A DNA stretch of 63,357 nt, counting the filler, from Craspedostauros australis (taxonomy: Eukaryota): the NCBI GenBank assembly GCA_030167865.1. It is 4 parts of 4 records of this genome, joined end to end, with 100 filler letters (N's around TTAATTAATTAA, not from the genome) between each part and the next. Parts side by side here need not be neighbours in the genome. Positions count along the whole stretch, not along the records: positions 24,513 to 36,173 come from JALAGF010001261.1; 3 more parts are not named here. One strand, written 5' to 3'. Shown here piece after piece: positions 18,701-39,761 of this stretch (its first letter is position 1; each line of letters starts with the position of its first letter). The position numbers were made by a program, and so were the translations under genes. The notes beneath the pieces are model-generated. The model was not told the DNA's origin, ran no database searches, and saw only the letters and a list, made by a program, of their open reading frames with translations.

Positions 18701-21288
18701 CTCAAGTTTTCGAGGTGACTTGGAGGTGGCGTTTGGCGACTTCGATGCCCTTCTTGGAATAGGTCATGCATGTACCAGAGAAACGGACACCCCGCAAGGA
18801 GGCCTATCGATCCAGAGACTCTCTTTCGTCCCCAGTTTTCCTGCGTGTGCCGAGAAGTAAAGACTACGCTCGATTTGAATGAATGTGATCAACGAGTAAT
18901 ACCCCTATTCACACCCGCAATGAGAGAGAGAGAGAGAGCGAACAAGATCGAAAGCAAGACACATGTCTGTATAGTAGCACGGCTGCCGACGAGGACCTAT
19001 CAACGAGTGCCATGGCCCGCCTTGGCTATTGCCGCCCTGAACACAAGCCATGCAGCTTGATTGCAAAGCGTCCCCTTGTGCAATTCTCCCTGCGGCACTA
19101 CGCCGAGCGACGGAAACCTTCGTATCCGTCAGCAGGTCTCGTCATTAGCTGGTGCCGGCTCAAGGAGATGTCAATGGCCAATGGCATGGCGTCGTGCAGT
19201 ACACACATCTAATGCTGATGCCATATGTGCATGGGCATTACATGTAGGGCCGTGATAATAACTGGCAATATGTCAGGTGGGTGGAGTGTGCGAGCGCAGA
19301 GCAGTGCCAGCGGCTGTATCCCCCCTTTCGTTCCATGTCGAGCATTTCATATCCTATTTCGCCCCTGTTGTCATAGTCGTATGCTCCAAATTGATATGAC
19401 CACGAAAGGCGGTTTCGCTACGGGCGGGGGCTTACCTGTTGACTCTGCCCTGACCGATCATTCAATGCACGACCATTCCACCAATCCAGCCCTGGAGCAG
19501 CTCGTAGTTGTGTGGTTGGTCCGGCACAGGGAAGCCTGAGACAGTATGCCCACACAAAACGAACGGGATTTGTGAGACTGAACGAAGAACCTCACGGGGT
19601 GATGTTGACGTCGACGAGATGAAACGACGCAAAATGTGAAAGAATGGAGAGACGAAGAGCTTTGGGCGTTGAGAGTATCGAACAGCATCTTTACGATTGC
19701 CTTGCCTTTCGTGGCGACGAGTCCACAGGGAACGCAACCCGAGGCTTGCCAGCGTCGGTATCGGCTAGGCTACGAGTATGACCCAGAACAGCGTGGCCGA
19801 ACAACATCTGGCCTGTTTGGAGGTTTTGCGTTCTCTCCTTTGCGGTTTCTCCGCCAAGAGGCGGTGGCGGATGAGAATGTGATTTTGTTTTGCCAACCAC
19901 CCATTTACTCTACTCTACTGTACAATTCCACCTGTGCTGAGTTCGACATGGTCATCAGCAACAACAACGCGAGCAACGCATGAGACAATTGTGAGCGACA
20001 CAGGTCTTTACGACCACAAAGTTGCTCCAACCACGACATTCGCCTCGCCTTTGTCAAGCCGGTTGACATTTTGGCCGTGGTTTGGAACAACGACGCTTTC
20101 GACCCATTCACAGTCAAGGAACCTTGGTACTGGCCCAGGTAGTAGAGGTTCTCCTTGATGGAGCTTAATTGTCAAGGTGCCACCCAAAGATGGGAAAGAG
20201 GAATGCTGTGACTCCGCCCCAGAGTGCTGTTGCGTCGGAAGCCTTTTTCCGTGGGTGTTTGCTACGCGTATTCGTAGAGTACCGCTTTGTGTGTTGGCGC
20301 TTCCGCGCGAAATGATTGCGTCTGCTCTCCACTGTGGCATCCTCAGCTGTCATCGTTGAAGCTGTCCCCATGGCGACACAATCACGCAGCACAATCACGC
20401 AATGAGCGAAGATTGATTTAAGCGGCGGAAATGGCACAAAGCCTGCATCTTTCACTTCACAAAATGTCCACTGGGGGTTGAATGCAAACCTCTATCTCTC
20501 GTTTCGGCAGCCACATTCGATCTCATGGAGGATGGCGCCTGGTTCTACAGGCTTCGCGGACATCATATGTGCCAAAAGAAGCCTTTCGTCATCACGCTAC
20601 TACCTATCTTCTTCCTCTGCTCGAAGGGTGCCGTTTGGAACATGGTTTACTTCCACTCATTCTCGCTTGTTTCCTCTTCCGTCCAACCCTCGGCCCTTCC
20701 GTTGAGACGACACCGCTTCGGAGCCGGGCACAACTGGTTGGACAGTCACAGTCACACTCCTGCCATCGCCGCCATCACCATCCGCCAAGAACTCCAGCAC
20801 CAGCATCAGCACCAGTATCAGCAAAACAGAAGAAGAGAAGAGAAGACACTCCACCAAACAAAAAGTCCCGCCCGAACGAATGGATGGACCGATACATGAC
20901 CCACTCTGGGCTCATTCCGCTCCCGGCGCTACCGCCTCTGACGGTGGTCTTGGTGTGGTGTCCAAAACAAGACCGAGCTCTTTGAGGTTCTCATACCCAT
21001 CGTGTGTGTACATGTGCGCTTGGCAGTACTTCCAATTGTACTTCCAGGGATCAAAAGACGGCCACCGCATACTCACCATAGCTCGTGCCCGACTGGCTGC
21101 GATATCATTTTTATCTTCGGCAAGGTGAAGTGCGCACAACTGTGATAGTCCCACAAAAAAGAAACACCACCAAACATCAGACAAAAGGCAGCAAGGTTGC
21201 AACCGAAAACGACAGGCAGCGGACAGTACGATTCAACTGCTCCACAATCACGACAACGACGACGACGACGACAACAACGACGATAGAG

Positions 21289-23121
21289 ATGGGAACGCAG
21301 ATCTTGCACGCCCAGATCCCGGCAATGGTCCATCACAGGAGCTACAGTAGTGATACGCGCGCCAGCTCAAGCATCAGCGCCAGCACCAACCTCGGCATCG
21401 GCGCCGACACTAATATCAACACCAACGCCAGCATCATCAAAAGCATCAGCCACATCCAGACCCATTTCATGAGCTTTGCTGGGATGAATCGGCAGCAACA
21501 AGAATACGAGTACATGGCGGCCACAGCACCACGCGGAAGCCGCGGGACGGAAACGCAAGGGAAACGCAAACACGAGGATGGCCTGCCACAGACCCACGTC
21601 GATGACGTTGCTCTCAACATCGATGCGTGGTCGGCTGGAGATCTCTTTGCAATCAGCTGTGGTCCTCATGAACTTGGCAGCATTCATCCTGGCCAAGTCG
21701 TATGCCAAGATGCAGACCTGGCAATTAGCAACAGCAACAGGAGCAGCGTTGACGGCAGTGACTGGAAGAAGCGCCGCACAACGGCGAAGGAAATGTCAAG
21801 TACCGATGTTATGCCCGTTGCCGCTCTATCCAGTGGCGTGGCCTTGGAAAACCACTATGCCATGAGCGGAGACAAGGCCATCGCCAAAGAACTAAGCGAT
21901 CTCACAGCGGCAGAGCGAGAGCAGATTTTGCACGATCTGCATGCAGTGGCCCCAGGAATCGAGGTCGCAGACACGATGGTCACCAGGAAGCTTCGGCAGT
22001 TGCAGCTTCGGCTGGAGGGTATCAAGGACAAGAAAGATTACGAGAAGGCTCTCTTCCTCAACCCAACCTACGTCAGGTCAGAGAGATTCCAGCTGGCTTT
22101 TCTGAGGGCGGAAAGGCTTGACGCAGCGAGGGCGGCCAACAACATCGTGAGCCATTTCAAGCTGAAGCGCATACTCTTCGGTGTCGACAGCTTGAGCAGA
22201 GAGATCGTATGGGACGATCTGTCGCAAGAAGACAAACATGCATACCACCGACACGGATATGCTCTTCTGGGTTGTGACGTGGGCGGTCGAAGGATCATTG
22301 TCGGCAACGTTGTCGGCAACACCGGGCCCAACCGATCAATGGCCGCAGACAGAGCCGCATGGTTTTCTCTCATGCCCAGCATGCTGGATGACTGGAGCGT
22401 CCAGAAGCACGGAGCTGTCCTGATCGACACATGCCAGGACAGGTTCCCATCACCAGAGCACGAGGCGATGCATGCAGCCCAGCTCTCTAACACGCCTTCA
22501 CTCTTCAACGCAATTCCGTTTCGGGTTGCTGCAACGCATGTCTTCGTCCATGACGAACGATCTCAAACAGATCTACTCGTGCGCTCGGCCGTGTCCCTCC
22601 TCCCTCAACAGATCCGTCTGCGGCTGAGGCTCCACCATGGCTCTCCAAGCCAGTGCATGGATTCACTTAGATGCTTCGGCGTCACACCGGCCATGCTCCA
22701 GGTTGATGAAGACTTGAATTCCACGGGATCAACACTCAACAAGATGCTCGAGGAACAACTCCAAACTGCCGTTGCGAAGCAACAGAGGCAATCAACGATG
22801 GAGCGCAAGCTCTTCCCTCGTTCCATCGACATCGTCTGCGGCAGAGGCTTCCCCTACAGAACTTTCTCCGGAAACGTTCAGTTCTTAGGCTTCCTGCAAT
22901 CGTACAAGCAAGAGTACGGCACAGCAGGAAGCCAGTTTGCCAAGACAGCTATCACTGTCGAGATATTGCAGGTTGTGAAGGCAAAGGGCATCCGTTTCCT
23001 CAAGCGATGCGTCAACGGCGACTCATGGGAGGAAGTCCCCGACGACAGCGCGCGGATCAAGATTGCCATGACATTCCGCAACCTTTCCAGAAGACGTACA
23101 GGATCAGGCAGTGCCATCTAA
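21289..23121 (+). CDS. Diatom-type CRAL-TRIO-like domain plus C-terminal DUF6824-like domain protein (start uncertain)
   Basis: KELSDLTAAEREQILHDLH..YEKALFLNPTYV..FQLAFLRAERLDAARAA..HFKLKRILFG..REIVWDDL (CRAL-TRIO-N-like). C-terminal DIVCGRG..GNVQF..Y..KTAITVEILQVVK..GIRFLKR..WEEVPDDSARIKIAMTFRN (DUF6824-like). Confidence 0.75.
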   Translation: MGTQILHAQIPAMVHHRSYSSDTRASSSISASTNLGIGADTNINTNASIIKSISHIQTHFMSFAGMNRQQQEYEYMAATAPRGSRGTETQGKRKHEDGLPQTHVDDVALNIDAWSAGDLFAISCGPHELGSIHPGQVVCQDADLAISNSNRSSVDGSDWKKRRTTAKEMSSTDVMPVAALSSGVALENHYAMSGDKAIAKELSDLTAAEREQILHDLHAVAPGIEVADTMVTRKLRQLQLRLEGIKDKKDYEKALFLNPTYVRSERFQLAFLRAERLDAARAANNIVSHFKLKRILFGVDSLSREIVWDDLSQEDKHAYHRHGYALLGCDVGGRRIIVGNVVGNTGPNRSMAADRAAWFSLMPSMLDDWSVQKHGAVLIDTCQDRFPSPEHEAMHAAQLSNTPSLFNAIPFRVAATHVFVHDERSQTDLLVRSAVSLLPQQIRLRLRLHHGSPSQCMDSLRCFGVTPAMLQVDEDLNSTGSTLNKMLEEQLQTAVAKQQRQSTMERKLFPRSIDIVCGRGFPYRTFSGNVQFLGFLQSYKQEYGTAGSQFAKTAITVEILQVVKAKGIRFLKRCVNGDSWEEVPDDSARIKIAMTFRNLSRRRTGSGSAI

Positions 23122-24412: not shown

Positions 24413-24512
24413 NNNNNNNNNNNNNNNNNNNNNNNNNNNNNNNNNNNNNNNNNNNNTTAATTAATTAANNNNNNNNNNNNNNNNNNNNNNNNNNNNNNNN
24501 NNNNNNNNNNNN
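24413..24512. other. Artificial contig-joining linker (N44-TTAATTAATTAA-N44)
   Basis: Exactly 100 nt; central 12-mer gives stops in all six frames; same layout at 36174 and 38543. Confidence 0.97.
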
Positions 24513-25395
24513 AAAGAAGAGCGATCAGAGCATGGCGAGATTGGACTCCTCGATGTCAAACAGTCGACTCTGCTCTATTCTGGACTGCTCTTGTGTACTG
24601 CTGCTAACCAAGGGATCATTGCTCTCCCAAGCAGGATGGGCGCAACGATACACATGCATCCAAGTTGCTGTTGCCAAGACGGTTGCTGGTGTACGGAATT
24701 CTGGAGTAGAACTAAAACGCTATTGCAGAAGTAATCAACCACAAACAATTACAATGTTTTACGATGAACGAAGTCGCAATGGATGATATCAGGATATAAG
24801 GAACTGATCATAGCATGTGAAGAACACAATGGTTGGCACCACAATGTTTTGTGATCATTTCCACCGCGTGTTAACACGCGCTGGGGCACACAGAAATTCG
24901 CCACGATACATCGCGGTGATTGGCATTCGTGAATGGGATCAACGAGTTCCTGCTCCAAAGAAACAAACAGATCTCGACCACTACCCAACCAATCGCCACT
25001 AAAGTTGGAGTGTGTGATTACAAGCCACACATGAGAGTGCTCACCAAAGGAGAGCCCAAAAAAACGGAGCGGCATGGACTTGCCGAGGAGGTTTGTGTCA
25101 AAAATGGTGGTTTTGGGGCCGGTTTGCGTGGGACTGACGTACAAAATGTACCAGCGTCTACGTCAAAATTGACTCATGCGACTAGTTACCAATTGTTACC
25201 AATGGTTACCAAAAAAATTGGCCTCCACTCAAGCCACGAGACACTAGTCGTAGAAGTAGTAGTACATACTCGTGATGGATGGGAACAGGAGGATCCAAGC
25301 CGCACGAACCAGAGAGAGAGAGAGGGGTGCGATCAAGAGAAGGAGGCAAACACGACGATGCTTGTGCGCAAAGAGAGAAAGAGAGGACACGTGCG

Positions 25396-25444
25396 AACAA
25401 GACAGCAACAAGACAGCAACAAGACAGCAACAAGACAGCAACAA
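25396..25444 (+). repeat. 11-bp tandem repeat (AACAAGACAGC) x4.5 upstream of the ankyrin gene
   Basis: Read directly from the sequence. Confidence 0.9.
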
Positions 25445-25667
25445 CACACCACACAACCCCACACTCGAGCACATCAACAACAGACATCGAATTGCCACTC
25501 ACATTCATCACACGGTGCATAGTACTCATATTATACTAATACAAGCTATTGAAGACACACCATCGATATCTCTGCCTCATAGTAGATAGCTCAGACTACA
25601 CACTTCCTTGACAGCCAATCCAACGCCAAAAGACCACCAACCATCAACCATCAACCATCCTCTCAAC

Positions 25668-27164
25668 ATGCCGAATGTCACGAATGAACAATTCCTTGGT
25701 GCTGCCTGGGCAGGTGACTTGTCGGTGTTGAAGCAATGGAAGAAGCAGAACAAGACGCAGAATGAAGGCGTTGATGTCAACATGGTTACAGGCAGGGGAC
25801 GTATCACTCCCCTTCATTTGGCATGCTACGAAGGCCAGCTGGAGTGTGTGAAGTATCTCATCGAATCATGTGAGGCGAACGTCAACTGCCAAAACAACAA
25901 TGGTATCACTCCCCTTCATCACGCATGCCGCAACGGCCAGCTGGAGTGTGTGAAGTACCTCATCGAATCATGTGAGGCGAACATCAACTGCAAAGACCAT
26001 GATAGTTACACTCCCCTTCATCGGGCATGCATGAACGGCCAGCTGGAGTCTGTCAAGTACCTCATCGAATCATGTGAGGCGGACATCAACTGCAAAACCA
26101 ATGATGGTTCCACTCCCCTTCATTGGGCATGCCACAACGGCAAGCTGGAGTGTGTGAAGTATCTCATCGAATCATGTGAGGCGAACGTCAATTGCAAAAC
26201 CAACAATGGTTCCACTCCCCTTCATCACGCATGCCGCAACGGCCAGCTGGAGTGTGTGAAGTACCTCATCGAATCATGTGAGGCGAACATCAACTGCAAA
26301 GACCATGATAGTTACACTCCCCTTCATCGGGCATGCATGAACGGCCAGCTGGAGTCTGTCAAGTACCTCATCGAATCATGTGAGGCGGACATCAACTGCA
26401 AAACCAATGATGGTTCCACTCCCCTTCATTGGGCATGCCACAACGGCAAGCTGGAGTGTGTGAAGTACCTCATCGAATCATGTGAGGCGGACATCAATTG
26501 CAAAACCAACAATGGTTCCACTCCCCTTCATTGGGCATGCCGCAGCAGCCACCTGGAGTGTGTGGAGTACCTCATTGAATCATGTGAGGCAAATGCCAAC
26601 TGCAAAACCAACAATGGTTTCACTCCCCTTCATGATGCATGCTACAACGGCCGCCTGGAGTGTGTGGAGTACCTCATCGAATCATGTGGGGCGAATGCCA
26701 ACTGCAAAGACAACGATGGTTTCACTCCCCTTCATCACGCATGCTGGGAAGGCCACCTGGAGTGTATCAAGTACCTCATCGAATCATGTGGGGCGGACAT
26801 CAACTGCAAAAACAACTATGGCAACACTCCCCTTCATTGGGCATGCATGAACGGCAAGCTGGAGTGTATGGAGTCCCTCATCAGAGGACTTTCGCCTTCA
26901 GTCCACCCACAACTGCAACAACTGCAGCAACGCTTACAACAAAACGAGCAAGAGAATGAACAGCCACAAGAACAGTTGGGACAGCAGTTGAAGCGAAAGA
27001 AGCAAGAGAATGAACACAAACACAGCAGTCACAAGAGGACCAAAATCAACATTGAAGAAGACAGCTCAGATCCTTCCAACCTGAGAACAGGGCAGACACC
27101 ATCTTCGTATGTGGACAGGACGACCGACAACAACCAATCAAGACAAACTCCGAAGTCTTCATGA
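25668..27164 (+). CDS. Ankyrin repeat ORF, 11 x 34-aa repeats with high internal identity; 5' part of a disrupted ANK-BTB gene
   Basis: TPLHxACxxGxLECVKYLIESCEAxxNCK repeats at a 102-bp period from 25803 to about 26890, followed by a Gln-rich coiled coil and a basic NLS-like segment (LKRKK..HKRTK). Confidence 0.9.
   Translation: MPNVTNEQFLGAAWAGDLSVLKQWKKQNKTQNEGVDVNMVTGRGRITPLHLACYEGQLECVKYLIESCEANVNCQNNNGITPLHHACRNGQLECVKYLIESCEANINCKDHDSYTPLHRACMNGQLESVKYLIESCEADINCKTNDGSTPLHWACHNGKLECVKYLIESCEANVNCKTNNGSTPLHHACRNGQLECVKYLIESCEANINCKDHDSYTPLHRACMNGQLESVKYLIESCEADINCKTNDGSTPLHWACHNGKLECVKYLIESCEADINCKTNNGSTPLHWACRSSHLECVEYLIESCEANANCKTNNGFTPLHDACYNGRLECVEYLIESCGANANCKDNDGFTPLHHACWEGHLECIKYLIESCGADINCKNNYGNTPLHWACMNGKLECMESLIRGLSPSVHPQLQQLQQRLQQNEQENEQPQEQLGQQLKRKKQENEHKHSSHKRTKINIEEDSSDPSNLRTGQTPSSYVDRTTDNNQSRQTPKSS
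25803..26890 (+). repeat. 102-bp tandem repeat array (about 11 units) with a 306-bp higher-order duplication
   Basis: Units start at 25803, 25905, ... 26823. Units 2-4 (25905-26210) recur almost verbatim as units 5-7 (26211-26516). Confidence 0.95.
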
Positions 27165-27707
27165 TCACCGTCCCATCCATTGAGACACTGATCGGCAAAG
27201 GAATCCAACATCAGCACGCGAATGATGGCGCCGAAGATGGCGCAGCCCCCATGCAAGTGACCGTCCCTCTTCTCAACCTACAACCCAAACACGTCTGATA
27301 CGTCCTCCAATGCATCTGCACAGCCAAGATATCCTTTCATGACAGCGTTCGTGACAACGCTGCTGCTCGCGTCGGCGCTCACATCGGCGCTCACACCAGC
27401 GCTCACCACGATGCATATGCCTCTCACCAGCCAACCCCTACCCACACTGGACAGGATGGTCTGCAACAGCTGATCCTTGTGGCCAATGAGTTCGGCTTCT
27501 GGCGACTCAAGCTTGTTCTTGAAGCGGAGTTGGCCCGCAAACATCTCGAAGAGAACACCATGATAAATGCGTTGATATGCGCCGATCAACACAACTGCTT
27601 GGTGTTGACGGATGCAGCAATGAGAATGGCAGCTGAAAATGAGAAAAATATGTTCACTCATCCAGATTTCAGCAAGCTGATTCTACAACCCCAACTGATG
27701 GGAGGCA
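27056..27707 (+). pseudogene. BTB/POZ plus BACK-like (SPOP-type) domain, out of frame with the ankyrin ORF and with an internal TGA
   Basis: Frame from 27062 reads QLRSFQPENRADTIFVCGQ..IKTNSEVFMITVPSIETLI..VTVPLLNLQPKHV*YVLQCICT..LQQLILVANEFGFWRLKLVLEAEL..INALICADQHNCLVLTDAAMRMAAEN..FTHPDFSKL. TGA at 27296-27298. The LINE 3' tail begins at 27708. Confidence 0.75.
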
Positions 27708-27887
27708 TGTTGTTGTTGTGTCACATAGACTATAGTTTTACCTATGCGCCGATGGCGCTTTTGTACCGCCTCGTTTATTCTGCATGTATCATACAGCGGG
27801 AACGGATAAAGTAGAGGTCGTGCAGTCGGAGCCTGTTCGTGTCGCGATGCTGGCCGGGTGGCGCTGTCGAGCCGCGGCGTATGCAAG

Positions 27888-30800
27888 CTAGCAAGGCGGG
27901 GCTGCCGACGAGGCGGGCCGCCCGGACTGGTGGGATTCTGACACAGCGCGCCTCAGCCATGCCACTTGCGTTGGGGGGATGGTGTCGGCCACGTGAGGCA
28001 TGGCATGGAGCATCACGAGCAGCCACTCTGCCTTCTTGGGCGTCGTGCTTGGCACCTGCTGTGCGATCTGGCGAAGATGCACCGGAAGCGAGGCGAGCGG
28101 GAGCTCCCTTAGCGCCGTGGAGTACGACTCCATGCGTTGGGCCATCAGGCTGCGCGTTCCATCCTCATGCAGCTGGCGGTTCCTGGACGTCCACTGCTGA
28201 AGGATCATGAGCCACAGCTCGTGAGTCACATCAGCCTGCCAGTGGACTGGCCGTCTCCGCGCTGCTGTTGGCTCCGGATTCGGGCTGAACTGCTCCCATG
28301 CGGTGGACCACCCTCCCCAAAGAAGTCCGTCCCAACCGACACCATGCTGCGCCACCTCAATGCCATGCGTCGCCGTGCGCCGAATGCCTTGCGGCGGGTT
28401 GCCGCCTTGCTGGAGGATGCGGAGGGCTTTGACCAGCAGTTGGGCCGCCTCTCGTCGGACCCGAGGAGGCTGGATCACTTTCCGAATTCGTTGAACTGCG
28501 TCTTCCCATATGGCCTTGCTGTCATCGCTTGGGCAGCGCACCACATGCCAATTGTCTTCGACGGCCCCGCACCTGGGGCAGGCCCCGGAGGCAGACTGCC
28601 CACGCCGGCACATGTTCCTGCCGGACGCCGCGTTCCCGGACGCCAACTTGAGGATGGCCCGTTGCTGGCCGCCTCTCCATCGGGACGACGCCCTCATCAT
28701 GGGCCTCCAATCGACTGCGTGGCTTGCGGCGGACCCCCAGCGCTGGCGCCACTTGTTGCGCAGGCCCTGAGTTGCCGCCGCTTGGGAGACGGCCTCGTAG
28801 CTGGCCTCTGAAACTGGCCCGCTGAGGTCTGCAACTACCCAGCCCGCTGACTGTGGCGCCCCGGAGACCGAGCCCCACGATTGGGCTTGGTCGATGGCCC
28901 GCCAATGTCTGCCGGCCTCGTGATCCGCCACGACATTGAGAACCTCCCAGTCCGACAACTGGTGGTTCGCCCGTGCGTCCGCATGCCCCTTGACGTGCTG
29001 GACCTTGAACCGCACTGCTGTCGACTGCAGCTGACGCTGGATCTCCTGCCGCAGATCGAAGTCGGCTTCGTCGGATGGGATGAGCCGTGCCCTCGCGCTG
29101 GACCGTATTGCTTGCATGTTGTCACACGCAATGGTGGCAGACCCCTTCACGTCCGCCCACGCTGCGAAGGCCCGCAGGAACTGCATGGCCAGTAGCACTC
29201 CCGCTGTCTCGGCTCTGTTCGACGTCATTGGCTGGGAACCTTCCGGGACCTCAGAGCAGAGCAAGATACCTGAAGTGGGTTGGACGAGGCTGTCCTGAAT
29301 CACCACCGCAGCGGCGCCTCTGTTGTCTTTGGCCGACGCATCGCAGCATGCCACGCACTGCCCGCTTGCGATGGCAGTCGAGATGGATGCTGTCGACCCG
29401 TGGATGCGCACGTGGCGGAGCATTTGGTCTGCGAGGCCTCCCATGCCGACGATGTGCTCTCGGAGCGTGGTCGCCAGCGCAGGGCGCAGGACTTGTCCCA
29501 GCGAGAGCACCACCGTGGTGCCTCGGTGTGCATGGGCGTCTGCGACGGCCTCCCCGCGGACTCGACGACATCTGTACTCCGTGTGGAGAATTTGCTGCGG
29601 CGATTGCCTTGGCCGATGGCTCTCGAGCAGGCCGGACTGGCTCTGCCGCACGCGGAATCTGTCCGCGCTGTGCCACGGCCCCAGAGGCTTGCGCAGTGCG
29701 GCGCCCGGCCGGTCCCTGGCCAGCAAGTGCAACACCAAGGCATCCCACGCGTGCCACGCAGCTTGTGACGGGGGCACCGTCTTCGGCCATGGGAGGTCAC
29801 TGTCCGCACGTGTAGCGGGTAGATGGCGCAGCACCATGGGGTGTATCTTGCCCCCTTCGGCATCGCAGATGTCCGACAGCCACAGTGCTTGCAGATGCAC
29901 CCGGACTGCGTTGGCCTTGCGGAGCTCCACTTCGTCGCTCGTGCAGTCGAGGAACCGGCTCATGATAGTGACATCGCCCACGCGAGGGGGCTGTAAGGCT
30001 GGTGACACCTGTCGCATGTGAAGCTCGGACTGGCTCATCATGTCAAAGGTATGTGACCACCACGTGTCGTGGGTCCACTTCCGCCAACGGCGATGGAGCT
30101 GCTGGATCCGATCGACGACTCCAGACCACAGTTGAAGCTGCAATAGAGATGACCGTAGGAGCCGTCCTGTGGTGGTGTCAGCCTCAAAGTGTCGCCAAAC
30201 CAGCTCCAAGTGCGCTTTGCATTGCACTGTGAACAGGTGAGGTATGCCAAGGCCATTCAGCCGCCGGGGCCCGTGCACATACGGCCTTGCAATGGACCTC
30301 ACGATCCCCATGTGTGGAAGCGCCACACTGAGCGCGGGCCTCATTATGGTCTCGCACTGGCCGCGGGTGAGCGTGGTGGCAGCTAGCGAGTATGTGAGGG
30401 CCGGCCACAGGACCGCCTTGAGCGCAATCTCGGTGTCCTGCTTCGAAATCCGGGCCGTCTGGATGTGGGCAGCCCACTCGGCAGCCTTCGCCCGAAGATA
30501 TTCGGCGTGCTCCCTCTGGTTGCCGTCACGGCGCGACATCATTCCAAGGTATTTGCTGGCCTCGTCCACTGGCTTGTGTTGGAGAACCTGCCCTTGCTCG
30601 CCGTCGCCCCGCATTGTTATGTCTTGGGGCTGGGTTCGCCTGTCGTATTGCCATCTGTAGTTGCCCCACCGGAAGCGGACAAGCTGCCAGAAGCTTTTCT
30701 CAGGTGCCAGGCAGCCTCCTGAAGCGGAGAGCATGTTCTCCCACAAGGAAACCATGTGTTGGAACTCGCGTGACTGCGATGCTGCGTCGGAACTCTCGAG

Positions 30801-33482
30801 CGAGTGAACGAGATTGGTGTCGTCCACATATGCGAAGCAGACCACCCGGTGCTCCCTTTGGCCCGTCTCGCCGTACTGGAACCCATAGCCTTTGTTCTGC
30901 ATTCGCTCGATCAGCGCCGAGCTGATCATGAGCCATCCCGTGGGGGCAGCTCCCAGGCCTTGGACGAGGCCTTGGATCGGGTTGGAGAGACCTGCACCCG
31001 AATAGCTGGTATTGGATACACCTGACCCCATGCTGATGCGATGCTCCATGCGCTGCAGTGTGCGCAGCACGCTTTCAATGGGAGCTTTGGGGACGCCTTG
31101 GCGGCGCATGGCCATGCCGAACGCGGGGTGTGAGATGCGGTCGTAACACCCTTTGGCATCGTTGGAGCATACCGCCGTCGCTCTCCCAGAGATCCTCATA
31201 ATGTCGTCCGCCATGCAGACGTTGGCGAGCACCTCCTGAGCGGTATGGTTCTGGCGGCTGCCGTATTGGTCCTCGGCAATGGTCCCAGTGAGCTCAGCGT
31301 GGCCCCTGGCAGCCCGGCCAAGCTGCCTGGTGTTCATATTGAAGTCCCCTTCCATTAGCCCTATCGTGCGGGTCTTGGTGACAGACAGATTTCCTGGCTG
31401 CTTGCGCAACTGAATGTCGGTGCACTGTTGCCACCTCCGCAGACTGTAGCCTGTGCAGTACGGAATCGACCGCATGATCGCGTCGATGGCCGCCAGCTCT
31501 GGGCGCCTTGTGTTCGCCTTCCAACAACCAAAATGAATGCCGGACGGACCGGAAGACGTGCGCTCCTTGATCTTCCGCCACCCGTCTGTGTGGCACTCCG
31601 TGGAGATGACGGTGTCGGACGGGCGCCACGGAGTGACTCGAGGCGACTGCTGGAGAGCTATGAGAAGCTCTGACGTGCCGTGCTGGACTTGTGTCGGCAC
31701 CAGCCCCATGATGATGGCGTCGGCGCCCGCGGTCGTGCCGTACTTGCCCACGAGTTGGCTCAGGCCTGGCTGGCACAGTTCGGAGGACCACGCTTGTTGG
31801 TATTTGGCGATGTTCGTCGCACAGCATGCTCCTGCTACCTCTTCGGAGTCTGTGAGAATCTCCCCGCTGCCGCCTGGCCCGTCGTGGACGACCATGCTGA
31901 CCTGTGAGTCGCTGGCCGTGCCTGCCAGAGCTTGCTTGATGCGTCTGAACGTCGCACGGGTCTCCTCCCGTTCGGCCATCTGCTTCCTGTATTTTAGGGG
32001 ATCCCCGCCACCTTCTTGGATGAATCCCTCATTCGCTCGGAGGAAATCGACTCGGTGTTGCGCCGCCAGCCGTTTCTCCTTCTTGAGCTGACGCCACGTC
32101 TTGTTTCGCTCGACTGTCATGTCTGCCGTGCTCATGTCACGGGTGCGGACGTGCTCCAGGTGCGCCTTCTTCTTCAGCCTGTCGATGGTGGATCCTTTGA
32201 CCTGGTGGCCCGACCTTCGCCGCAGGGACTCGGTCCAGAACTGATGGGCTTTCTGAATGCGGTTCACCAGTGGCGAGTACGGGACGTTTCCCACTCGGAT
32301 TTTGCGGCACGATCGCTCTGCTTTGAGCATAGCCTTCGTGCGATCCGCATCAATGTCCTCGATTGCTCTCGCTTGCTCCTGGGTGAGGGGCGCCCCTGTC
32401 ACCTCCCGCTCCAGCGCGTTGGCGCGCTCCAGCAACCTGCTCTGTCGAGCCGCTTCGGCGTACGAGTCGAGATACCGGCTGACCGTGGCCGGCCTTTGCA
32501 GCTGAAGCCTGCGACCGCGGAATGGTTGTGTTGGACTGCGGCCTCTGCCCATGAGCTGTTGGGTTGCGTAGTCCACCCATACCATGCGATGGTCCCACGG
32601 ACCGAATGGTGTGGCCCCTGATTGAGTAGCCATCGCCTCCGGAGTGGACCAGATGCCATCGATCTGTACGTTGCTGCGGTTCCGAATGTGGGTGGCTGCT
32701 GACTGTGGGTGCTGCGTGGAAAGTGCCTCTGTCATTCCTTCGTCAGCCAACATCGCACTCACTCGGGACTTCCTCACGTCCATATTGACATCGCCACCCA
32801 GGATGATCGTCTCACCCGCTTGACGCCATTGATGAAGCTGGCTTTGCAACTCACTCAGGTGGAGGTCGATGGGATCCGCGTCGATGCCCACTGCAGCCGC
32901 ATTGGACGCCTGTTGGTTGTACACCGTTCCTGGGGTTTTGGTTGACCGGTTTGCTACGTAGGTAGCCACCAGCCGCACCTTGATGTGGCCTTTGCCCTGT
33001 AGAAGCACGCTGACCCATCTGCCCCATTGGTGGGTGTCTTTCTCGCTTGTCAATATGCGGCCTCGGGTGCTGCCTTTGATAAGGATTGCTGTCCCACCCC
33101 ACTGCCTCACCCGCATCGGGTTGGACTGATTGTGCGACGTGACGGTGCGTGACTGGGGTACGTTCTGCTGGACGATTTCGTGGAGCCGTTTGTGCCGCGG
33201 CACCTTGCTCCAGTTGATACCAACCTCGGTTAGGAGCATGACGTCGACGTTGTACTTGCGGATTGTCTCCCAGAGGTCCTGATACTTGGGGTCGGTCTCG
33301 TCCATGGGTAGGCCGCCGAGGTTGAGCGCTGCGACCCGAATGTGACCTGGGACGATGTTTTGGGTGTCCCCACCTATGGAGGCGAATTGATCGATCACCT
33401 CTTCCGTGCCTGATCGATCGGTGTTGTCTTGCCTGTTGCTCTGCCGGCCGGACTGCGCGCGGCTTGCAGTGCTTGCTAACAT
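27888..33482 (-). CDS. LINE ORF2 (1864 aa): APE endonuclease, reverse transcriptase, RNase H, CCHC zinc knuckle
   Basis: APE: ALNLGG, DVMLLTE, GGTAIL, ILGGDVN, QIDGIW, DHRMV. RT: SSGPSG, RTIGLM, QYGSR, DAKGCYDRI, GLVQG, AYVDD, KYLG. RNase H: CDAS, RAETAG, ACDN, HVKGHAD, NVVAD. Zinc knuckle: CPRCGAVEDNWHVVRC. Confidence 0.95.
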   Translation of the reverse strand: MLASTASRAQSGRQSNRQDNTDRSGTEEVIDQFASIGGDTQNIVPGHIRVAALNLGGLPMDETDPKYQDLWETIRKYNVDVMLLTEVGINWSKVPRHKRLHEIVQQNVPQSRTVTSHNQSNPMRVRQWGGTAILIKGSTRGRILTSEKDTHQWGRWVSVLLQGKGHIKVRLVATYVANRSTKTPGTVYNQQASNAAAVGIDADPIDLHLSELQSQLHQWRQAGETIILGGDVNMDVRKSRVSAMLADEGMTEALSTQHPQSAATHIRNRSNVQIDGIWSTPEAMATQSGATPFGPWDHRMVWVDYATQQLMGRGRSPTQPFRGRRLQLQRPATVSRYLDSYAEAARQSRLLERANALEREVTGAPLTQEQARAIEDIDADRTKAMLKAERSCRKIRVGNVPYSPLVNRIQKAHQFWTESLRRRSGHQVKGSTIDRLKKKAHLEHVRTRDMSTADMTVERNKTWRQLKKEKRLAAQHRVDFLRANEGFIQEGGGDPLKYRKQMAEREETRATFRRIKQALAGTASDSQVSMVVHDGPGGSGEILTDSEEVAGACCATNIAKYQQAWSSELCQPGLSQLVGKYGTTAGADAIIMGLVPTQVQHGTSELLIALQQSPRVTPWRPSDTVISTECHTDGWRKIKERTSSGPSGIHFGCWKANTRRPELAAIDAIMRSIPYCTGYSLRRWQQCTDIQLRKQPGNLSVTKTRTIGLMEGDFNMNTRQLGRAARGHAELTGTIAEDQYGSRQNHTAQEVLANVCMADDIMRISGRATAVCSNDAKGCYDRISHPAFGMAMRRQGVPKAPIESVLRTLQRMEHRISMGSGVSNTSYSGAGLSNPIQGLVQGLGAAPTGWLMISSALIERMQNKGYGFQYGETGQREHRVVCFAYVDDTNLVHSLESSDAASQSREFQHMVSLWENMLSASGGCLAPEKSFWQLVRFRWGNYRWQYDRRTQPQDITMRGDGEQGQVLQHKPVDEASKYLGMMSRRDGNQREHAEYLRAKAAEWAAHIQTARISKQDTEIALKAVLWPALTYSLAATTLTRGQCETIMRPALSVALPHMGIVRSIARPYVHGPRRLNGLGIPHLFTVQCKAHLELVWRHFEADTTTGRLLRSSLLQLQLWSGVVDRIQQLHRRWRKWTHDTWWSHTFDMMSQSELHMRQVSPALQPPRVGDVTIMSRFLDCTSDEVELRKANAVRVHLQALWLSDICDAEGGKIHPMVLRHLPATRADSDLPWPKTVPPSQAAWHAWDALVLHLLARDRPGAALRKPLGPWHSADRFRVRQSQSGLLESHRPRQSPQQILHTEYRCRRVRGEAVADAHAHRGTTVVLSLGQVLRPALATTLREHIVGMGGLADQMLRHVRIHGSTASISTAIASGQCVACCDASAKDNRGAAAVVIQDSLVQPTSGILLCSEVPEGSQPMTSNRAETAGVLLAMQFLRAFAAWADVKGSATIACDNMQAIRSSARARLIPSDEADFDLRQEIQRQLQSTAVRFKVQHVKGHADARANHQLSDWEVLNVVADHEAGRHWRAIDQAQSWGSVSGAPQSAGWVVADLSGPVSEASYEAVSQAAATQGLRNKWRQRWGSAASHAVDWRPMMRASSRWRGGQQRAILKLASGNAASGRNMCRRGQSASGACPRCGAVEDNWHVVRCPSDDSKAIWEDAVQRIRKVIQPPRVRREAAQLLVKALRILQQGGNPPQGIRRTATHGIEVAQHGVGWDGLLWGGWSTAWEQFSPNPEPTAARRRPVHWQADVTHELWLMILQQWTSRNRQLHEDGTRSLMAQRMESYSTALRELPLASLPVHLRQIAQQVPSTTPKKAEWLLVMLHAMPHVADTIPPTQVAWLRRAVSESHQSGRPASSAAPPC

Positions 33483-36088
33483 TGCGGGAGAGCCCCGGCC
33501 CCGGGGTTGGCGTTGCTGCGCTGGGCGTCGAGCTCCTTGCGTAGCTTGTCGATCTCCGCGCGCTGAATTTCGAGCCTGGCCTGGTTGAGGGACTCCTTTC
33601 TTTGTCGTTCCTGCTCTCGCGCCGCTGCTCTAGTGGCCTCCCTGCGTTTCTCGGAGTCTGTTGTCGCGATGGACGCTGCGTCGCCTGAGCCGGGAACTCC
33701 TGTCACTGCGGAGTTCATGGTCATGTGGGATCCCACCGTAGTTCCTGAACCAAACAGGCTTCTGTAGTCGAGCGCTGCCGGTCGGTGATTCTCCACGGAG
33801 GCAAGGTCTGGTGGTAGATTGGTGATGACCACACTCGCCGGAAACTCCTCCTCAAGGAGGTGCTCGAGGTTGCTGTGGTCTGGCGCATTGTATTCTTTAG
33901 TCGTGCTGTCATACGTGACGTTGAGATTTGCATGCCACGCATCGACGCTGAACCACTTCTCTGTCTTGGTGCCCAGCTGAATGCGCGCAACGGCTGGCAG
34001 GAGGCTCATGATGGCAGAGGCTTGGGCCATGTTCTCCTCAAACACGTGGCCAATGAGCTGGTCGTCATGTGCACGTGCCATGTCAAGGCTTTGAAAGATC
34101 GGCCGTCCTTGATCATCCCGCATGCTCATTATATGGGACCGGAGCGTGACGTGCTCCCGGTTGTCCCCATGAACTGGGTCGTCCAGCTTGGTGACCCCCG
34201 CCGTGTCCACGTACTTGAGACTCGACAGCACTGCCTGATGTTTTTGCACCAGGTTTGTACGGTGCCGTCGCTTCTTCTCCGTCATCTGCTCGTACCTGGC
34301 TTCCGGAAGGAACCGGAGGCGGAGCCCTGCTGGCCGGTTGTCGTCTTCGTTGAGGAGCGCACACATTCGCTCCACCGCGATGGCTGCTTGCGAACTCTCC
34401 GTTTCGACCTTGATAGCACGCCAGGGCTGCATCGTCCAATGCTTGCCGCTGTTCTTGTAGGCTTCTCTTGTGCTGTCGCACACCATGACTATGTTTTTGA
34501 GCTTCCCGCCGACTCTGGTGTTCTTGTGGCGTCTGCGGAACTCGCGGTTGAGTAGCTCCATGGTGCCCTTGACATCGTTGAAGCCTCCAGAATATAGCAG
34601 GAACCCGATCTCCTTGGTACTCTCGACCTGTAGCATGCTGATGTACAGTCCTTCCTGGTGCTTGTAGTAGTACGGATTCATCTCCGCATCTCTTTCCGCA
34701 GTGATGTTGGTGGGGTGCATGTCTGTTGTGATTCTGACGTTGGTATATGCCAGGCCACTGTCCATCGTGGATGCTCGAATGCCTTTGAAGAACACGCGGA
34801 GATCCTGTAGTTCCACTGGGATTTGACCCACGTGCTGGATGTACCGACGCTCGTCGAGTGTATCTTTCCACGGCAGGATGATGGCCGATGGATCAACAAT
34901 TCTGACCTGCCGGAACCATGCCACAATTCTGTCACGGAGTGCTTTGGTGGTGTCAGGCTCAGTTTGGTCAGCCTTGATCTTGAACATGAACCTGGTGGTG
35001 TGCTGGAGGCTGGGCAGCCCGATCAGGATTTGGCTTGTGTCGGATTCCGAGGACTGGTCGTCCATGGCAATTGTGGAGGCCACCTGGCTGAACGTGACGC
35101 CTGCGCGTCGTGCTGCCGTCTTCCGGCTGCCGCTTGGGGCAGGGGCTGTTGGTGCGTGCGCCGCTGGTTGCGGGGGTTGTTTGGAGCCTTCATCGTTCAG
35201 TTGCATTGGCACGTCACTGGTTGGCTCCGGCTGCGTTTCTGGCTCTTCGCCCGCTAGTGCCGCGAATCTGTTGGTGCTTGTGCCCAGCACTGATGTGCTG
35301 CGATTCGGAGATTTCGAGATCTTGGACCGTTTGGCCGGGTTGGGGCCGCCTGGGGATCCTTTGGATGCATCTTGGCCTGCCATGACTGGCAGCTTTGGCA
35401 CGTTGTCTGGGTCCCGTTCTTCATCCTCACTGTCAGTAAGGCTTGTGACGGAGAGATCTGGGGCCGTTCCCACGTCGTAGTTGGTGCCCAGCACCCTACG
35501 CGCTGCCTCCCAAGCTCTGGCTGGCCTGGATCTGGAGCTGACGCCCCCACTTGGCTTGACCTGGAAGACTTTCCGTGGATCGGTGGACGCCATCCGCATG
35601 ATCGCCATGCACACTCGCTTGCGCCTTGGGTCGTCGGACGGGAGACTCATCGGGCCGTACTGCGTGTGTCGCCCATTGAGAACTCGCCGGAAAAACAGTT
35701 CCCAATCCTTGACTGAGGGGTTTGCGGCTGTTGCCTCCGTCTCGTCTTTGCCGTACCATTTGGCTCTGGCGCTCCACATCTGTCCTGCCATGTAGTCAAT
35801 AGAATGGGCACCAGAGGCTGTCGCGAACGGCTCGATGTTGTCGCCGTATTTCCTCAGCGTCGTTTTCCACGTGCTTGTTCTGGGCTTGTACTCGGTGGTG
35901 AACTCTTCGGGAGCCAGTTCAACCATTACTCCACCGTTTGCCTCCGCTCTTTTGGCTGTGACACTGGTGCGATGAGGTGGTTCCTGAGCATGGGGGATAC
36001 TGTGTGGAGGCTGCTCCGTATCGCCGTTGTTGCGGCTGGAAGGTGGCCCTTTTTCGAGGTCCGCCATGGTCGGTTCGTTGCTTGACAT
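33476..36088 (-). CDS. LINE ORF1 (870 aa), with a C-terminal coiled coil
   Basis: Long ORF directly upstream of ORF2 on the same strand; its TAG overlaps the ORF2 ATG region (ATGTTAG). C-terminal charged helix EKRREATRAAAREQERQRKESLNQARLEIQRAEIDKLRKEL. Confidence 0.85.
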   Translation of the reverse strand: MSSNEPTMADLEKGPPSSRNNGDTEQPPHSIPHAQEPPHRTSVTAKRAEANGGVMVELAPEEFTTEYKPRTSTWKTTLRKYGDNIEPFATASGAHSIDYMAGQMWSARAKWYGKDETEATAANPSVKDWELFFRRVLNGRHTQYGPMSLPSDDPRRKRVCMAIMRMASTDPRKVFQVKPSGGVSSRSRPARAWEAARRVLGTNYDVGTAPDLSVTSLTDSEDEERDPDNVPKLPVMAGQDASKGSPGGPNPAKRSKISKSPNRSTSVLGTSTNRFAALAGEEPETQPEPTSDVPMQLNDEGSKQPPQPAAHAPTAPAPSGSRKTAARRAGVTFSQVASTIAMDDQSSESDTSQILIGLPSLQHTTRFMFKIKADQTEPDTTKALRDRIVAWFRQVRIVDPSAIILPWKDTLDERRYIQHVGQIPVELQDLRVFFKGIRASTMDSGLAYTNVRITTDMHPTNITAERDAEMNPYYYKHQEGLYISMLQVESTKEIGFLLYSGGFNDVKGTMELLNREFRRRHKNTRVGGKLKNIVMVCDSTREAYKNSGKHWTMQPWRAIKVETESSQAAIAVERMCALLNEDDNRPAGLRLRFLPEARYEQMTEKKRRHRTNLVQKHQAVLSSLKYVDTAGVTKLDDPVHGDNREHVTLRSHIMSMRDDQGRPIFQSLDMARAHDDQLIGHVFEENMAQASAIMSLLPAVARIQLGTKTEKWFSVDAWHANLNVTYDSTTKEYNAPDHSNLEHLLEEEFPASVVITNLPPDLASVENHRPAALDYRSLFGSGTTVGSHMTMNSAVTGVPGSGDAASIATTDSEKRREATRAAAREQERQRKESLNQARLEIQRAEIDKLRKELDAQRSNANPGAGALPQC

Positions 36089-36173
36089 CGTGATGACTTT
36101 CGTGTTGTTTGCTGTCTTTTTGGTACTGATTTAGATTTTATTTGTGTGCTGTTCGAGTTGTCGGAGTTCCGAA

Positions 36174-36273
36174 NNNNNNNNNNNNNNNNNNNNNNNNNNN
36201 NNNNNNNNNNNNNNNNNTTAATTAATTAANNNNNNNNNNNNNNNNNNNNNNNNNNNNNNNNNNNNNNNNNNNN
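36174..36273. other. Artificial contig-joining linker
   Basis: N44-TTAATTAATTAA-N44. Confidence 0.97.
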
Positions 36274-38542: not shown

Positions 38543-38642
38543 NNNNNNNNNNNNNNNNNNNNNNNNNNNNNNNNNNNNNNNNNNNNTTAATTAATTAANN
38601 NNNNNNNNNNNNNNNNNNNNNNNNNNNNNNNNNNNNNNNNNN
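38543..38642. other. Artificial contig-joining linker
   Basis: N44-TTAATTAATTAA-N44. Confidence 0.97.
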
Positions 38643-39761
38643 TTTGACACAACACACACACAAACGAGGAAGCACACAACAGAACCAAATCACCAACAAC
38701 GCAAGGAATCAAGGCAACACCGAATCCGCGACAACGTCACCATCCACAACATTGGATTCCATTGCCGTCTGATATCGACCGTCAAAGACGTCATCAATTC
38801 TGTCTATGGCGAAGACAAGTCAGCCAGGTATTTGTGTCGTAGAAGCTAGCTAAATATATCTAACCCTAATGGACAACACGAAAAATCATGTTCTAAAAAT
38901 ATCACGTGTTACGATGTCAAATCCGCAAAAACGTACGATTCTATCCTGAATGGGGCCGTACTCTGACGACAACGTGCTTCCGCTTTTGGCCAAGGATTGC
39001 GGTCGGCACCGAAAGCAGTCCAAATCGCGACGATCACCAATCACGACTAAAACGGGCGCGTTTGTTGTGTTGGTCCAGTTCAGTCCAGTCCTGTGTATCC
39101 ATTCAGTCTCGTTGGTGATTCGACCAATACGAGTGTCACAGACAAACTCAACCACAAATAATGAGAACAACTTGAAGACACCAAAAACACAAGCGCAGAA
39201 CTGCGGAAAACACCACGAACACAGAACACGACAATGAGAAACGACAGGAAGACCAACATCAGCCGTGTTGACGGCTCTCCTCATTCAATCCATAGGTATG
39301 GGACGAGCCACGAGCAAAGAACAATTCATCCACATCGTTGACGCTGCCTGTGGGAGCATTCCTCGGCGAGATCACGTATGATACGAGCGGACTAGAGAGA
39401 CTCTTGTTGTCTTGCATGGCAGAAGTACAGTTGAAGCAGAAGTAAATTGCTGTTCACATTGCGTCTCATGGCATTCCATCACATCAGGCAATCCTGGTCG
39501 GGTGCACTCCGACTGCTGGGATTGTATCCTTTTGCTCCCAAGAGTGCGCGAGACCATCCATCGCTGCCATCGTCACCAACACCACCATCATCGTTAACAT
39601 TGACCTAACCGTCATCAGCATTGTCATCGTCATTGTCATCATCGTTGCGTTCTTTTCGATCGGCTCCATTCTCTTCCCCACGACACAGGTAGAAAACAGA
39701 GTACATTCCTTGGACTGTGTCAAGCGTATACTCGTACAAGCAGAACAACAGCGCGAGCACC

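What the first reader, a model, noticed from the sequence alone, without database searches (positions are those of the whole stretch)
25803..26890. Ankyrin repeats vary almost only at binding-surface positions (natural DARPin-like array)
Seen: the framework (TPLH, AC, LEC(V)KYLIESCEA, NCK) is nearly invariant even at synonymous sites. The residue after TPLH runs L,H,R,W,H,R,W,W,D,H,W. The pair after AC runs YE,RN,MN,HN,RN,MN,HN,RS,YN,WE,MN. The beta-turn varies (QNNNGI, KDHDSY, KTNDGS, KTNNGF, KDNDGF, KNNYGN). Many changes are multi-nucleotide and radical (ttg/cac/cgg/tgg/gat). Established: helix 1 and the beta-turn form the ligand-binding face, and most of these positions are those randomised in designed ankyrin libraries. 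Inference: concerted evolution of the scaffold with diversifying selection on contact residues.
Basis: partly seen in the sequence, partly recalled or inferred. Interest (0 to 1): 0.72.

Follow-up and report, generated by a model that had tools for sequence, protein, structure and literature searches.

The report
Diatom ankyrin binder repertoire under selection
A diatom carries over a hundred genes built from near-identical ankyrin repeats that differ mainly at the residues used to grip other proteins, which looks like a natural library of binders, probably for recognising invaders, and some copies are joined to a domain that sends bound proteins for destruction.

Summary
The array is real: 11 in-frame 102-nt ankyrin units in a 498-aa ORF (25668-27164), though units 5-7 duplicate 2-4. 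It is one of at least 107 paralogues in this diatom genome. In 494 distinct units from 101 genes the framework is about 90% identical across genes, while four codons carry 9-13 common amino acids each. All four are positions randomised in a designed ankyrin library. At those library positions, closely related units differ by 104 replacement and 2 silent changes, against 7 and 6 on exposed helix-2 positions. Tree-free tests reject neutral drift and adenine-specific mutagenesis; a site-wise likelihood test failed its control and was discarded. The variable codons are almost unlinked. BTB is in frame in 15 of 77 genes where it was seen; in 62, including this one, it is a decaying relic while the array stays open. 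Best reading: an intracellular non-self binder repertoire with some Cullin-3 adaptor members. Ligands and function are not shown. The evolutionary regime is known from fungal NLRs; this scale and architecture were not found in print.

The parts
25250..25667 (+). Upstream segment shared with paralogues (probable promoter/5' UTR); start of the duplicated unit
   Evidence: blastn of paralogue L096 starts at 25250; homology among copies fades at ragged points about 250-400 nt upstream of ATG
25668..27164 (+). Intronless ORF, 498 aa (P0001): N-cap + 11 ankyrin units + Q-rich linker + out-of-frame tail
   Evidence: translation; Pfam Ank, 11 stretches
25668..25805 (+). N-terminal capping repeat; across 97 distinct caps the variable residues are 7, 11, 14, 15, of which 11, 14, 15 correspond to unit positions 5, 8, 9
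   Evidence: helices 6-15 and 18-29 in the model
25806..26894 (+). Ankyrin array: ten full 102-nt (34-aa) units and a terminal capping unit; hypervariable codons 5, 8, 9, 32, 34 of each unit (numbered from T of TPLH)
   Evidence: helix-turn-helix-loop repeat in the model; ankyrin and DARPin fold matches
25907..26467 (+). Recent three-unit (306-nt) internal duplication: 25907-26161 is repeated exactly 306 nt downstream
26895..27044 (+). Gln/Glu-rich putative coiled-coil linker with a basic KRKK motif (about 26991-27002; possible nuclear localisation signal, inference)
   Evidence: sequence; a basic motif is kept in 50 of 79 stop-terminated genes without in-frame BTB
27045..27708 (+). Relic of the SPOP-like BTB-BACK coding region: out of frame after a 1-nt deletion near 27063, in-frame TGA near 27296, 3' end cut off at 27708
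   Evidence: alignment to intact paralogue L091; BTB/BACK in paralogues
27709..36173 (-). LINE retrotransposon adjoining the cut BTB tail (ORF2 27888-33629 with endonuclease and reverse transcriptase; ORF 33476-36130); not part of the family unit
   Evidence: no match in the other fetched loci

Best explanation
The gene is one member of a young, greatly expanded diatom family that works as a repertoire of intracellular protein binders. Shown: a near-constant ankyrin scaffold; diversifying selection at the codons that line the concave face; those codons assorted almost independently; repeat number 2-15, up to 58; arrays kept free of stops; ancestral architecture ankyrin-coiled coil-BTB-BACK with a SPOP-like fold. 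Inferred: point mutations at the contact codons are favoured when rare, and frequent short-tract gene conversion plus unequal crossing-over within and between genes spreads them while homogenising the scaffold. Full-length members act as Cullin-3 substrate adaptors in which ankyrins replaced a MATH domain, so whatever the array binds is ubiquitinated. The majority that lost BTB, including this copy, are still selected as proteins and act as stand-alone binders (sequestering or decoy) and as donors of repeat variants. The selecting agent is most likely foreign proteins of viruses or other parasites that enter the cell.
For: Family size: 107 N-cap matches, 485 exact 19-mer matches, about 1,100 units by extrapolation. 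Entropy 3.65, 3.54, 3.37, 2.97 bits at codons 8, 5, 34, 32; 0 of 2,400 neutral coalescent simulations reached 2.97. Third-position transversions in those codons: 44 of 546 where silent, 346 of 1,430 where they change the residue. Close pairs 104:2 at a-priori library positions, dN/dS about 5 against pooled dS; 7:6 on helix 2. Proline in 2 of 2,470 residues at the five most variable sites. 463 five-site haplotypes in 494 units; normalised mutual information at most 0.07 for non-adjacent codons. Stops: 0 of 12 possible framework stop transversions seen, 20 of 24 silent ones seen. BTB model pLDDT 89, top Foldseek hits SPOP; nearest non-ankyrin relatives MATH-BTB; a Cullin-3 gene is in the genome. 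Parallels: fungal NLR ankyrins (PMC4986451); nematode F-box/MATH-BTB adaptors (PMC4334554).
Against: No ligand, infection response or phenotype is known, so the immune role rests on analogy. Four in five genes with a visible BTB region cannot make it (62 of 77), which does not fit a pure degradation-adaptor model. Framework constraint is weak for rare variants (ratio 0.65-0.74), so many copies may be near-neutral. Evidence that intact BTBs are constrained is thin (8 silent, 9 replacement singletons) and pairwise pN/pS does not separate intact (0.52) from relic (0.55). In the one run laid, several letters specific to this copy were absent, so expression of this copy is not shown. One genome only: polymorphism within the species was not measured.
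Confidence: 0.6

Rival explanations
1. Same evolutionary regime, but the opponent is inside the genome: the arrays track proteins or nucleic acids of transposable elements or other selfish elements, in the nucleus.
For: Basic KRKK-type motif kept in 50 of 79 truncated genes; no signal peptide; transposon insertions beside several copies. All selection evidence applies equally.
Against: No shared element flanks the copies; variable residues are rich in aromatics (179-188 of 494 at codons 5 and 8), as in protein-binding surfaces, and not mainly basic.
Confidence: 0.15
2. The repertoire serves allorecognition or mate/strain discrimination, as the Podospora het genes do.
For: The best-studied case of this regime is an allorecognition family (PMC2873952 abstract).
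Against: No signal peptide or membrane segment; no NACHT/NB-ARC or death effector in the ORFs; more than 100 dispersed loci is more than a mating system needs (inference).
Confidence: 0.08
3. Neutral turnover: a recently amplified, partly dead repeat family in which surface positions vary only because they are unconstrained.
For: Natural ankyrins are generally most variable at these positions (PMC4308713); rare framework variants are only weakly purged; a tree-based test gave 11-17 false positives of 34 codons in 8 of 8 neutral gene-conversion simulations.
Against: Replacement change exceeds silent change about 3-5 fold at the library positions while equally exposed helix-2 positions give 0.1-0.4; entropy outside all 2,400 neutral simulations; no stop alleles.
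Confidence: 0.05
4. A targeted mutator or programmed diversification (DGR-like or somatic conversion) writes variation into these codons.
For: Variable codons look like NNC, NNT and NNG with 13-15 of 16 first-two-base combinations; linkage is near zero at 6-9 nt.
Against: Silent adenines are invariant (GCA 483 of 494, TCA 488 of 494), against adenine-specific mutagenesis; third-position changes track the genetic code; no template repeat or dedicated RT was seen beside the fetched copies (13 loci inspected).
Confidence: 0.07
5. The mosaic arrays are assembly artefacts of a short-read, fragmented genome.
For: 6,734 contigs; many copies end at contig ends; some pairs share identical blocks up to the contig end (L054/L099, L049/L070).
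Against: Mis-joins cannot unlink codons 6-9 nt apart; 494 distinct units with no stop; an independent run holds 164 pieces at 99% or more and 312 at 95-99% identity to this region. Unit order and counts in single genes may still be wrong.
Confidence: 0.02

Closest known systems
Highly internally conserved ANK/TPR/WD40 repeats of fungal NLR-like proteins (Podospora anserina Pa_3_8560, HNWD family; PMC4986451, PMC2873952)
   Same: Near-identical repeats, repeat-number variation, concerted evolution within and between genes, positive selection on the concave ankyrin face (inner helix and hairpin).
   Different: No NACHT/NB-ARC or effector domain; array is N-terminal and joined to BTB-BACK or to nothing; at least 107 genes share one repeat type, where the Podospora analysis used about ten ANK/TPR genes; diatom host.
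Nematode F-box and MATH-BTB ubiquitin-ligase adaptors under birth-death evolution (passage in PMC4334554 citing its ref. 41; recalled as Thomas 2006)
   Same: Large family, Cullin-binding domain plus a substrate-binding domain under positive selection, frequent gene death; BTB here is SPOP-like and nearest to MATH-BTB.
   Different: Substrate module is a homogenised, shuffling ankyrin array instead of MATH; most copies lost the Cullin-binding domain while keeping the binder open.
Ectocarpus ROCO-LRR and NB-ARC-TPR candidate immune receptors (PMC3341825)
   Same: Stramenopile; repeat shuffling, diversifying selection on the repeat domain, rapid birth and death.
   Different: There each repeat is an exon; here the arrays are intronless ankyrins and no ROC-COR or NB-ARC is attached.
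Designed ankyrin repeat libraries (DARPins; ANK-N5C, PMC4308713)
   Same: Constant consensus scaffold, caps, and diversity at library positions 3, 5, 10, 13 (strong), 14, 2, 33 (weaker); proline nearly absent.
   Different: Natural; 34-aa unit with four conserved cysteines; up to 58 units; positions 1 and 16 also vary.
SPOP/BPM MATH-BTB-BACK proteins; also NPR1 and other BTB-ankyrin proteins
   Same: BTB-BACK fold (Foldseek top hits SPOP; NPR1 lower).
   Different: Ankyrins precede BTB through a coiled coil; 13-16% identity to SPOP; multi-copy and hypervariable.

Membership tests
Ankyrin repeat proteins | Tandem TPLH helix-turn-helix-hairpin repeats forming a solenoid | tested here: met
   Pfam Ank 11 stretches; model with paired helices; Foldseek to ankyrins and DARPins
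Highly internally conserved repeats under concerted evolution and diversifying selection (fungal NLR type) | At least 85% internal identity over at least 100 aa | tested here: inconclusive
   85% DNA matches by TRF; mean within-gene DNA difference 0.162; the paper's amino-acid criterion with its own tool was not run
Highly internally conserved repeats under concerted evolution and diversifying selection (fungal NLR type) | Positive selection on concave-face positions | tested here: met
   face assignment by alignment to a DARPin, DSSP and literature, not by computed contacts
Highly internally conserved repeats under concerted evolution and diversifying selection (fungal NLR type) | Repeat-number polymorphism between individuals at one locus | not testable with these tools
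   One genome; variation shown only between paralogues
NLR/STAND receptors | NACHT or NB-ARC NTPase domain | tested here: not met
   Pfam of the window ORF and two full-length paralogues shows only ankyrin and BTB
SPOP/BPM-type BTB-BACK Cullin-3 adaptors | BTB followed by 3-box/BACK | tested here: met
   In intact paralogue L091: Pfam BTB above cut-off, BACK below cut-off; model matches SPOP BTB, TM 0.82 by target length. Not met for the window copy, where it is out of frame
SPOP/BPM-type BTB-BACK Cullin-3 adaptors | N-terminal MATH domain | tested here: not met
   Replaced by ankyrins
SPOP/BPM-type BTB-BACK Cullin-3 adaptors | Binds Cullin-3 | tested here: inconclusive
   Cullin-3 gene present; see Tried and rejected for the complex job
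Diversity-generating retroelements | Adenine-specific mutagenesis from a template repeat with a dedicated RT | tested here: not met
   Silent adenines invariant; the adjacent RT is a LINE absent from other fetched loci
Transposable element carrying the gene | Common termini, terminal repeats or target-site duplication | tested here: not met
   Ragged, mosaic 5' and 3' homology boundaries on inspection; no formal TSD search was run

The most novel reading that the evidence does not exclude
A unicellular alga keeps an antibody-like intracellular repertoire: about a thousand interchangeable ankyrin modules are re-assorted by very short-tract conversion fast enough to differ between clones or cells, BTB-bearing members route bound foreign proteins to Cullin-3 for destruction, and BTB-less members serve as neutralising binders and as a donor pool.
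Probability: 0.15. Interest if true: 0.92.

Novelty: new variant of a known kind. Interest (0 to 1): 0.66.

Why it matters
Almost nothing is known about how diatoms recognise viruses or parasites; this family gives concrete, testable candidate receptors in a lineage with a closely related transcriptome on record. It joins two strategies known separately, shuffling hypervariable repeats (fungal NLRs, brown-algal ROCOs) and fast-evolving Cullin adaptors (nematode MATH-BTB), in one gene. It also shows natural selection choosing the same ankyrin positions that engineers randomise, with 494 distinct modules as a record of which residues and combinations are tolerated.

Tried and rejected
Site-wise likelihood dN/dS on a tree of units called 9 codons positive, but the same pipeline called 11-17 of 34 codons positive in 8 of 8 neutral gene-conversion simulations; its p-values were discarded and tree-free tests used. 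Nei-Gojobori per-codon pS is inflated at saturated codons and was not used. Complex prediction of BTB-BACK with two separate exon-encoded pieces of Cullin-3 gave no verdict (score 0.02, alignment not used); no evidence either way. Run search: no RNA holder listed; one run of guessed RNA type with a small share. In it the LINE and the flank upstream of about 25108 had no cover; not used as evidence. A full-length homologue search was swamped by generic ankyrins. A search for common element ends found none. A search for allelic pairs among 10 candidate gene pairs gave no clear allele pair with different arrays. Earlier notes on this genome or sequence: none.

Full report
OBSERVATION. The finding lies in an intronless ORF at 25668-27164 (+), 498 aa, with 11 Pfam ankyrin stretches. 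Units 5-7 are a recent copy of 2-4 (255-nt exact run at offset 306), leaving 8 distinct among 10 full units; 66 of 102 nt are invariant, 17 of 34 codons change residue, and silent variants exist at eight codons. A single-sequence model (pLDDT 72.5) gives the ankyrin helix pairs, with unit positions 2-8 as helix 1 and 12-22 as helix 2, and matches ankyrins and DARPins. Units are numbered from the T of TPLH.

FAMILY. The genome holds 485 exact copies of a 19-nt framework word and 107 matches to an N-cap pattern. I analysed 101 of the 107: 99 of the 100 listed plus one unlisted hit were fetched, and the window copy was read directly. Two further genes that miss the pattern carry 20 and 58 units with an in-frame BTB, so 107 is a lower bound; 272 of 642 units hold the 19-mer, which extrapolates to about 1,100 units. 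Detected arrays have 1-15 units. Copies are tandem or dispersed, with ragged mosaic boundaries and no common element ends. Named homologues of the family and of its BTB region are labelled Craspedostauros australis, so the host is a raphid diatom of that lineage. Older ankyrin-BTB paralogues at 43-55% BTB identity have ordinary divergent repeats; the homogenised subfamily is a younger expansion.

WHERE THE VARIATION IS. Of 642 units, 110 were dropped (terminal, non-102-nt spacing, out of frame or containing N), leaving 532, of which 494 are distinct. Amino-acid entropy is 3.65, 3.54, 3.37, 2.97 and 2.58 bits at codons 8, 5, 34, 32 and 9, about 2 at 30, 11 and 31, and below 1.1 at 21 of 34 codons; sampling one unit per gene gives the same profile. 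The ANK-N5C library randomises positions 2, 3, 5, 10, 13 and 33, which form one surface on the beta-turn and helix 1 (PMC4308713, passages); these equal our 31, 32, 34, 5, 8 and 29 (register from the DARPin alignment). The four most variable codons are all in that set of six (chance 3e-4). The single-copy N-cap varies at the equivalent residues 11, 14 and 15, and at 7 (residues 16-24 are fixed by my search pattern). The same paper notes that natural ankyrins are generally variable at these positions, so location alone does not show selection.

IS IT SELECTION? A tree-based site test failed its control: 11-17 false positives of 34 codons in 8 of 8 neutral gene-conversion simulations. I discarded it. 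Tree-free tests: (a) 0 of 2,400 neutral coalescent simulations, with diversity at or above the observed silent level and with rate variation, reached 2.97 bits; 10 of 2,400 reached the 2.58 of codon 9. (b) Within codons 5, 8, 32 and 34 third-position transversions occur in 44 of 546 codons where silent and 346 of 1,430 where they change the residue (counts are copies, not events). (c) In 69 disjoint unit pairs at most 6 nt apart, the a-priori library positions show 104 replacement and 2 silent differences (about 5 times pooled dS), exposed helix-2 positions 7 and 6 (0.36), the remaining framework 54 and 36 (0.65); at most 4 nt apart (31 pairs) the figures are 28:0, 1:3 and 17:16. Adenine-specific mutagenesis is excluded by invariant silent adenines. 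The arrays are kept open: 0 of 12 possible framework stop transversions are seen against 20 of 24 silent ones; 1 of 101 ORFs ends before its last detected unit, and three more (L066, L100, L124) have short or interrupted arrays. Against a strong-constraint reading, rare framework variants are only weakly purged (0.65-0.74).

HOMOGENISATION AND SHUFFLING. Framework distance is 0.092 within genes and 0.106 between (label shuffles 0.1055 +/- 0.0012); 116 of 532 units have their nearest neighbour in the same gene (about 6 expected). So exchange or recent common ancestry spans the whole family, with an added within-array component. Variable codons are nearly unlinked: normalised mutual information is at most 0.07 for non-adjacent codons and 0.06-0.18 for adjacent ones, and 494 units give 463 five-site haplotypes. 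Short-tract conversion or recurrent selected mutation can both give this; I could not separate them.

ARCHITECTURE. Full-length paralogues read ankyrin array, coiled coil, BTB. A model of that domain (pLDDT 89, 61-row alignment) has SPOP as its top Foldseek hits. Among 31 relatives scanned, the closest carry ankyrins and the next carry MATH, which points to ankyrins having replaced MATH in a SPOP/BPM-type adaptor (inference; no tree was built). A Cullin-3 gene is present. Of 101 genes, BTB sequence was not seen in 24; of the other 77 it is in frame in 15 (12 to or near the end, 3 up to a contig end) and cut off in 62 by several different stops and frameshifts clustered in the linker and the first 230 nt (in L100 the BTB seen may belong to the next gene). 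Relic BTBs show 41 silent, 111 replacement and 5 stop singletons (ratio 0.77) against 8, 9 and 0 in intact ones (0.32, small numbers); pairwise pN/pS does not separate the classes. The window copy has a 1-nt deletion near 27063, a TGA near 27296, and a LINE abutting the cut tail at 27708. No intron that would rejoin BTB was evident, and none was tested with raw reads.

EXPRESSION. One run, RNA by guess only, gave 1,247 contig pieces on 24600-28400, covering the upstream segment, array and BTB region, 164 at 99% or more identity; several letters specific to the window copy were absent. Family proteins are on record from transcriptome-derived sets. The family is probably transcribed; this copy is not shown to be.

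MECHANISM AND ODDS. Evolutionary regime (homogenised scaffold, diversifying selection on the binding face): about 0.9. Function as a repertoire against foreign proteins, with Cullin-3 routing in full-length members and stand-alone binding in truncated ones: 0.6, by analogy only. Rivals: intragenomic conflict 0.15, allorecognition 0.08, programmed diversification 0.07, neutral turnover 0.05, assembly artefact 0.02.

KNOWN SYSTEMS AND NOVELTY. Fungal NLR ankyrins show high internal conservation, repeat-number polymorphism and positive selection on the concave face (PMC4986451, passages; PMC2873952, abstract and outline). [quoted passage not shown] Nematode F-box and MATH-BTB adaptors are under positive selection in substrate-binding domains (one passage of PMC4334554). 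PMC8229355 and PMC8683736 were seen as passages for general DARPin facts. This gene is not an NLR and not a MATH-BTB; it works like the first in how it varies and like the second in what the full-length form probably does. Searches listed no paper describing this family; 'ankyrin' does not occur in the main text of PMC7335047 or of bioRxiv 2023.03.06.531300. Subscription papers and all supplements were not seen and could list the expansion. Earlier notes of this scan report the same repeat pattern in bacterial TPR and WD40 genes and a phage ankyrin-like array (unchecked), which lowers the novelty of the principle. Verdict: real, selected, a new variant of a known kind; interest 0.66.

Noticed in passing
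L130:1851-9257 (+), G000:C3870: One open ORF of about 2,440 aa with 58 ankyrin units (53 distinct of 55 full) and an in-frame BTB; L129 has 20 units and BTB. Possible reservoirs of repeat variants.
   Followed up: partly
L116, second unit: In-frame insertion inside the array with SSPAYTP/YTPDYSP repeats that resemble RNA polymerase II CTD heptads (resemblance recalled, not tested).
   Followed up: no
L068, L075, L085: Three genes with identical N-cap and seven identical units but different coiled-coil lengths and, for L068/L075, diverged BTB tails: recent duplication, block exchange or assembly collapse.
   Followed up: partly
window 27709-36173 (-): Apparently intact LINE: 1,913-aa frame with endonuclease and RT, an overlapping 884-aa frame without Pfam match, short CAA-type 3' tail; 5' end runs into an N gap.
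   Followed up: partly
P0002, P0007, P0022, P0058 (unnamed ENA proteins): Arrays of similar 34-aa Cys-containing ankyrin units followed by a P-loop GTPase-like region; internally conserved and variable at positions 8, 30, 34 in the few units extracted. Possibly a parallel system in another lineage.
   Followed up: partly
each ankyrin unit, positions 7, 14, 22, 28: Four conserved cysteines per unit (432-485 of 494); role unknown.
   Followed up: no
window 1798-6971 (+): G8 / CEMIP beta-helix protein with PT repeats, of the kind common in diatoms.
   Followed up: no
window 13425-15785, 21082-23121, 39693-41060, 45469-48087, 57904-61194: KIX_2, DUF6824, PBS-lyase HEAT, WD40 and HMG-box genes; ordinary neighbours unrelated to the family.
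   Followed up: no
window 24413-24512, 36174-36273, 38543-38642: Paired 44-N runs around a 12-nt spacer: scaffolding gap markers, not biology.
   Followed up: no
L092, from about 2.9 kb downstream of the ATG: Long ORFs that look like a copia-type retrotransposon inserted after the gene (by eye, not scanned).
   Followed up: no
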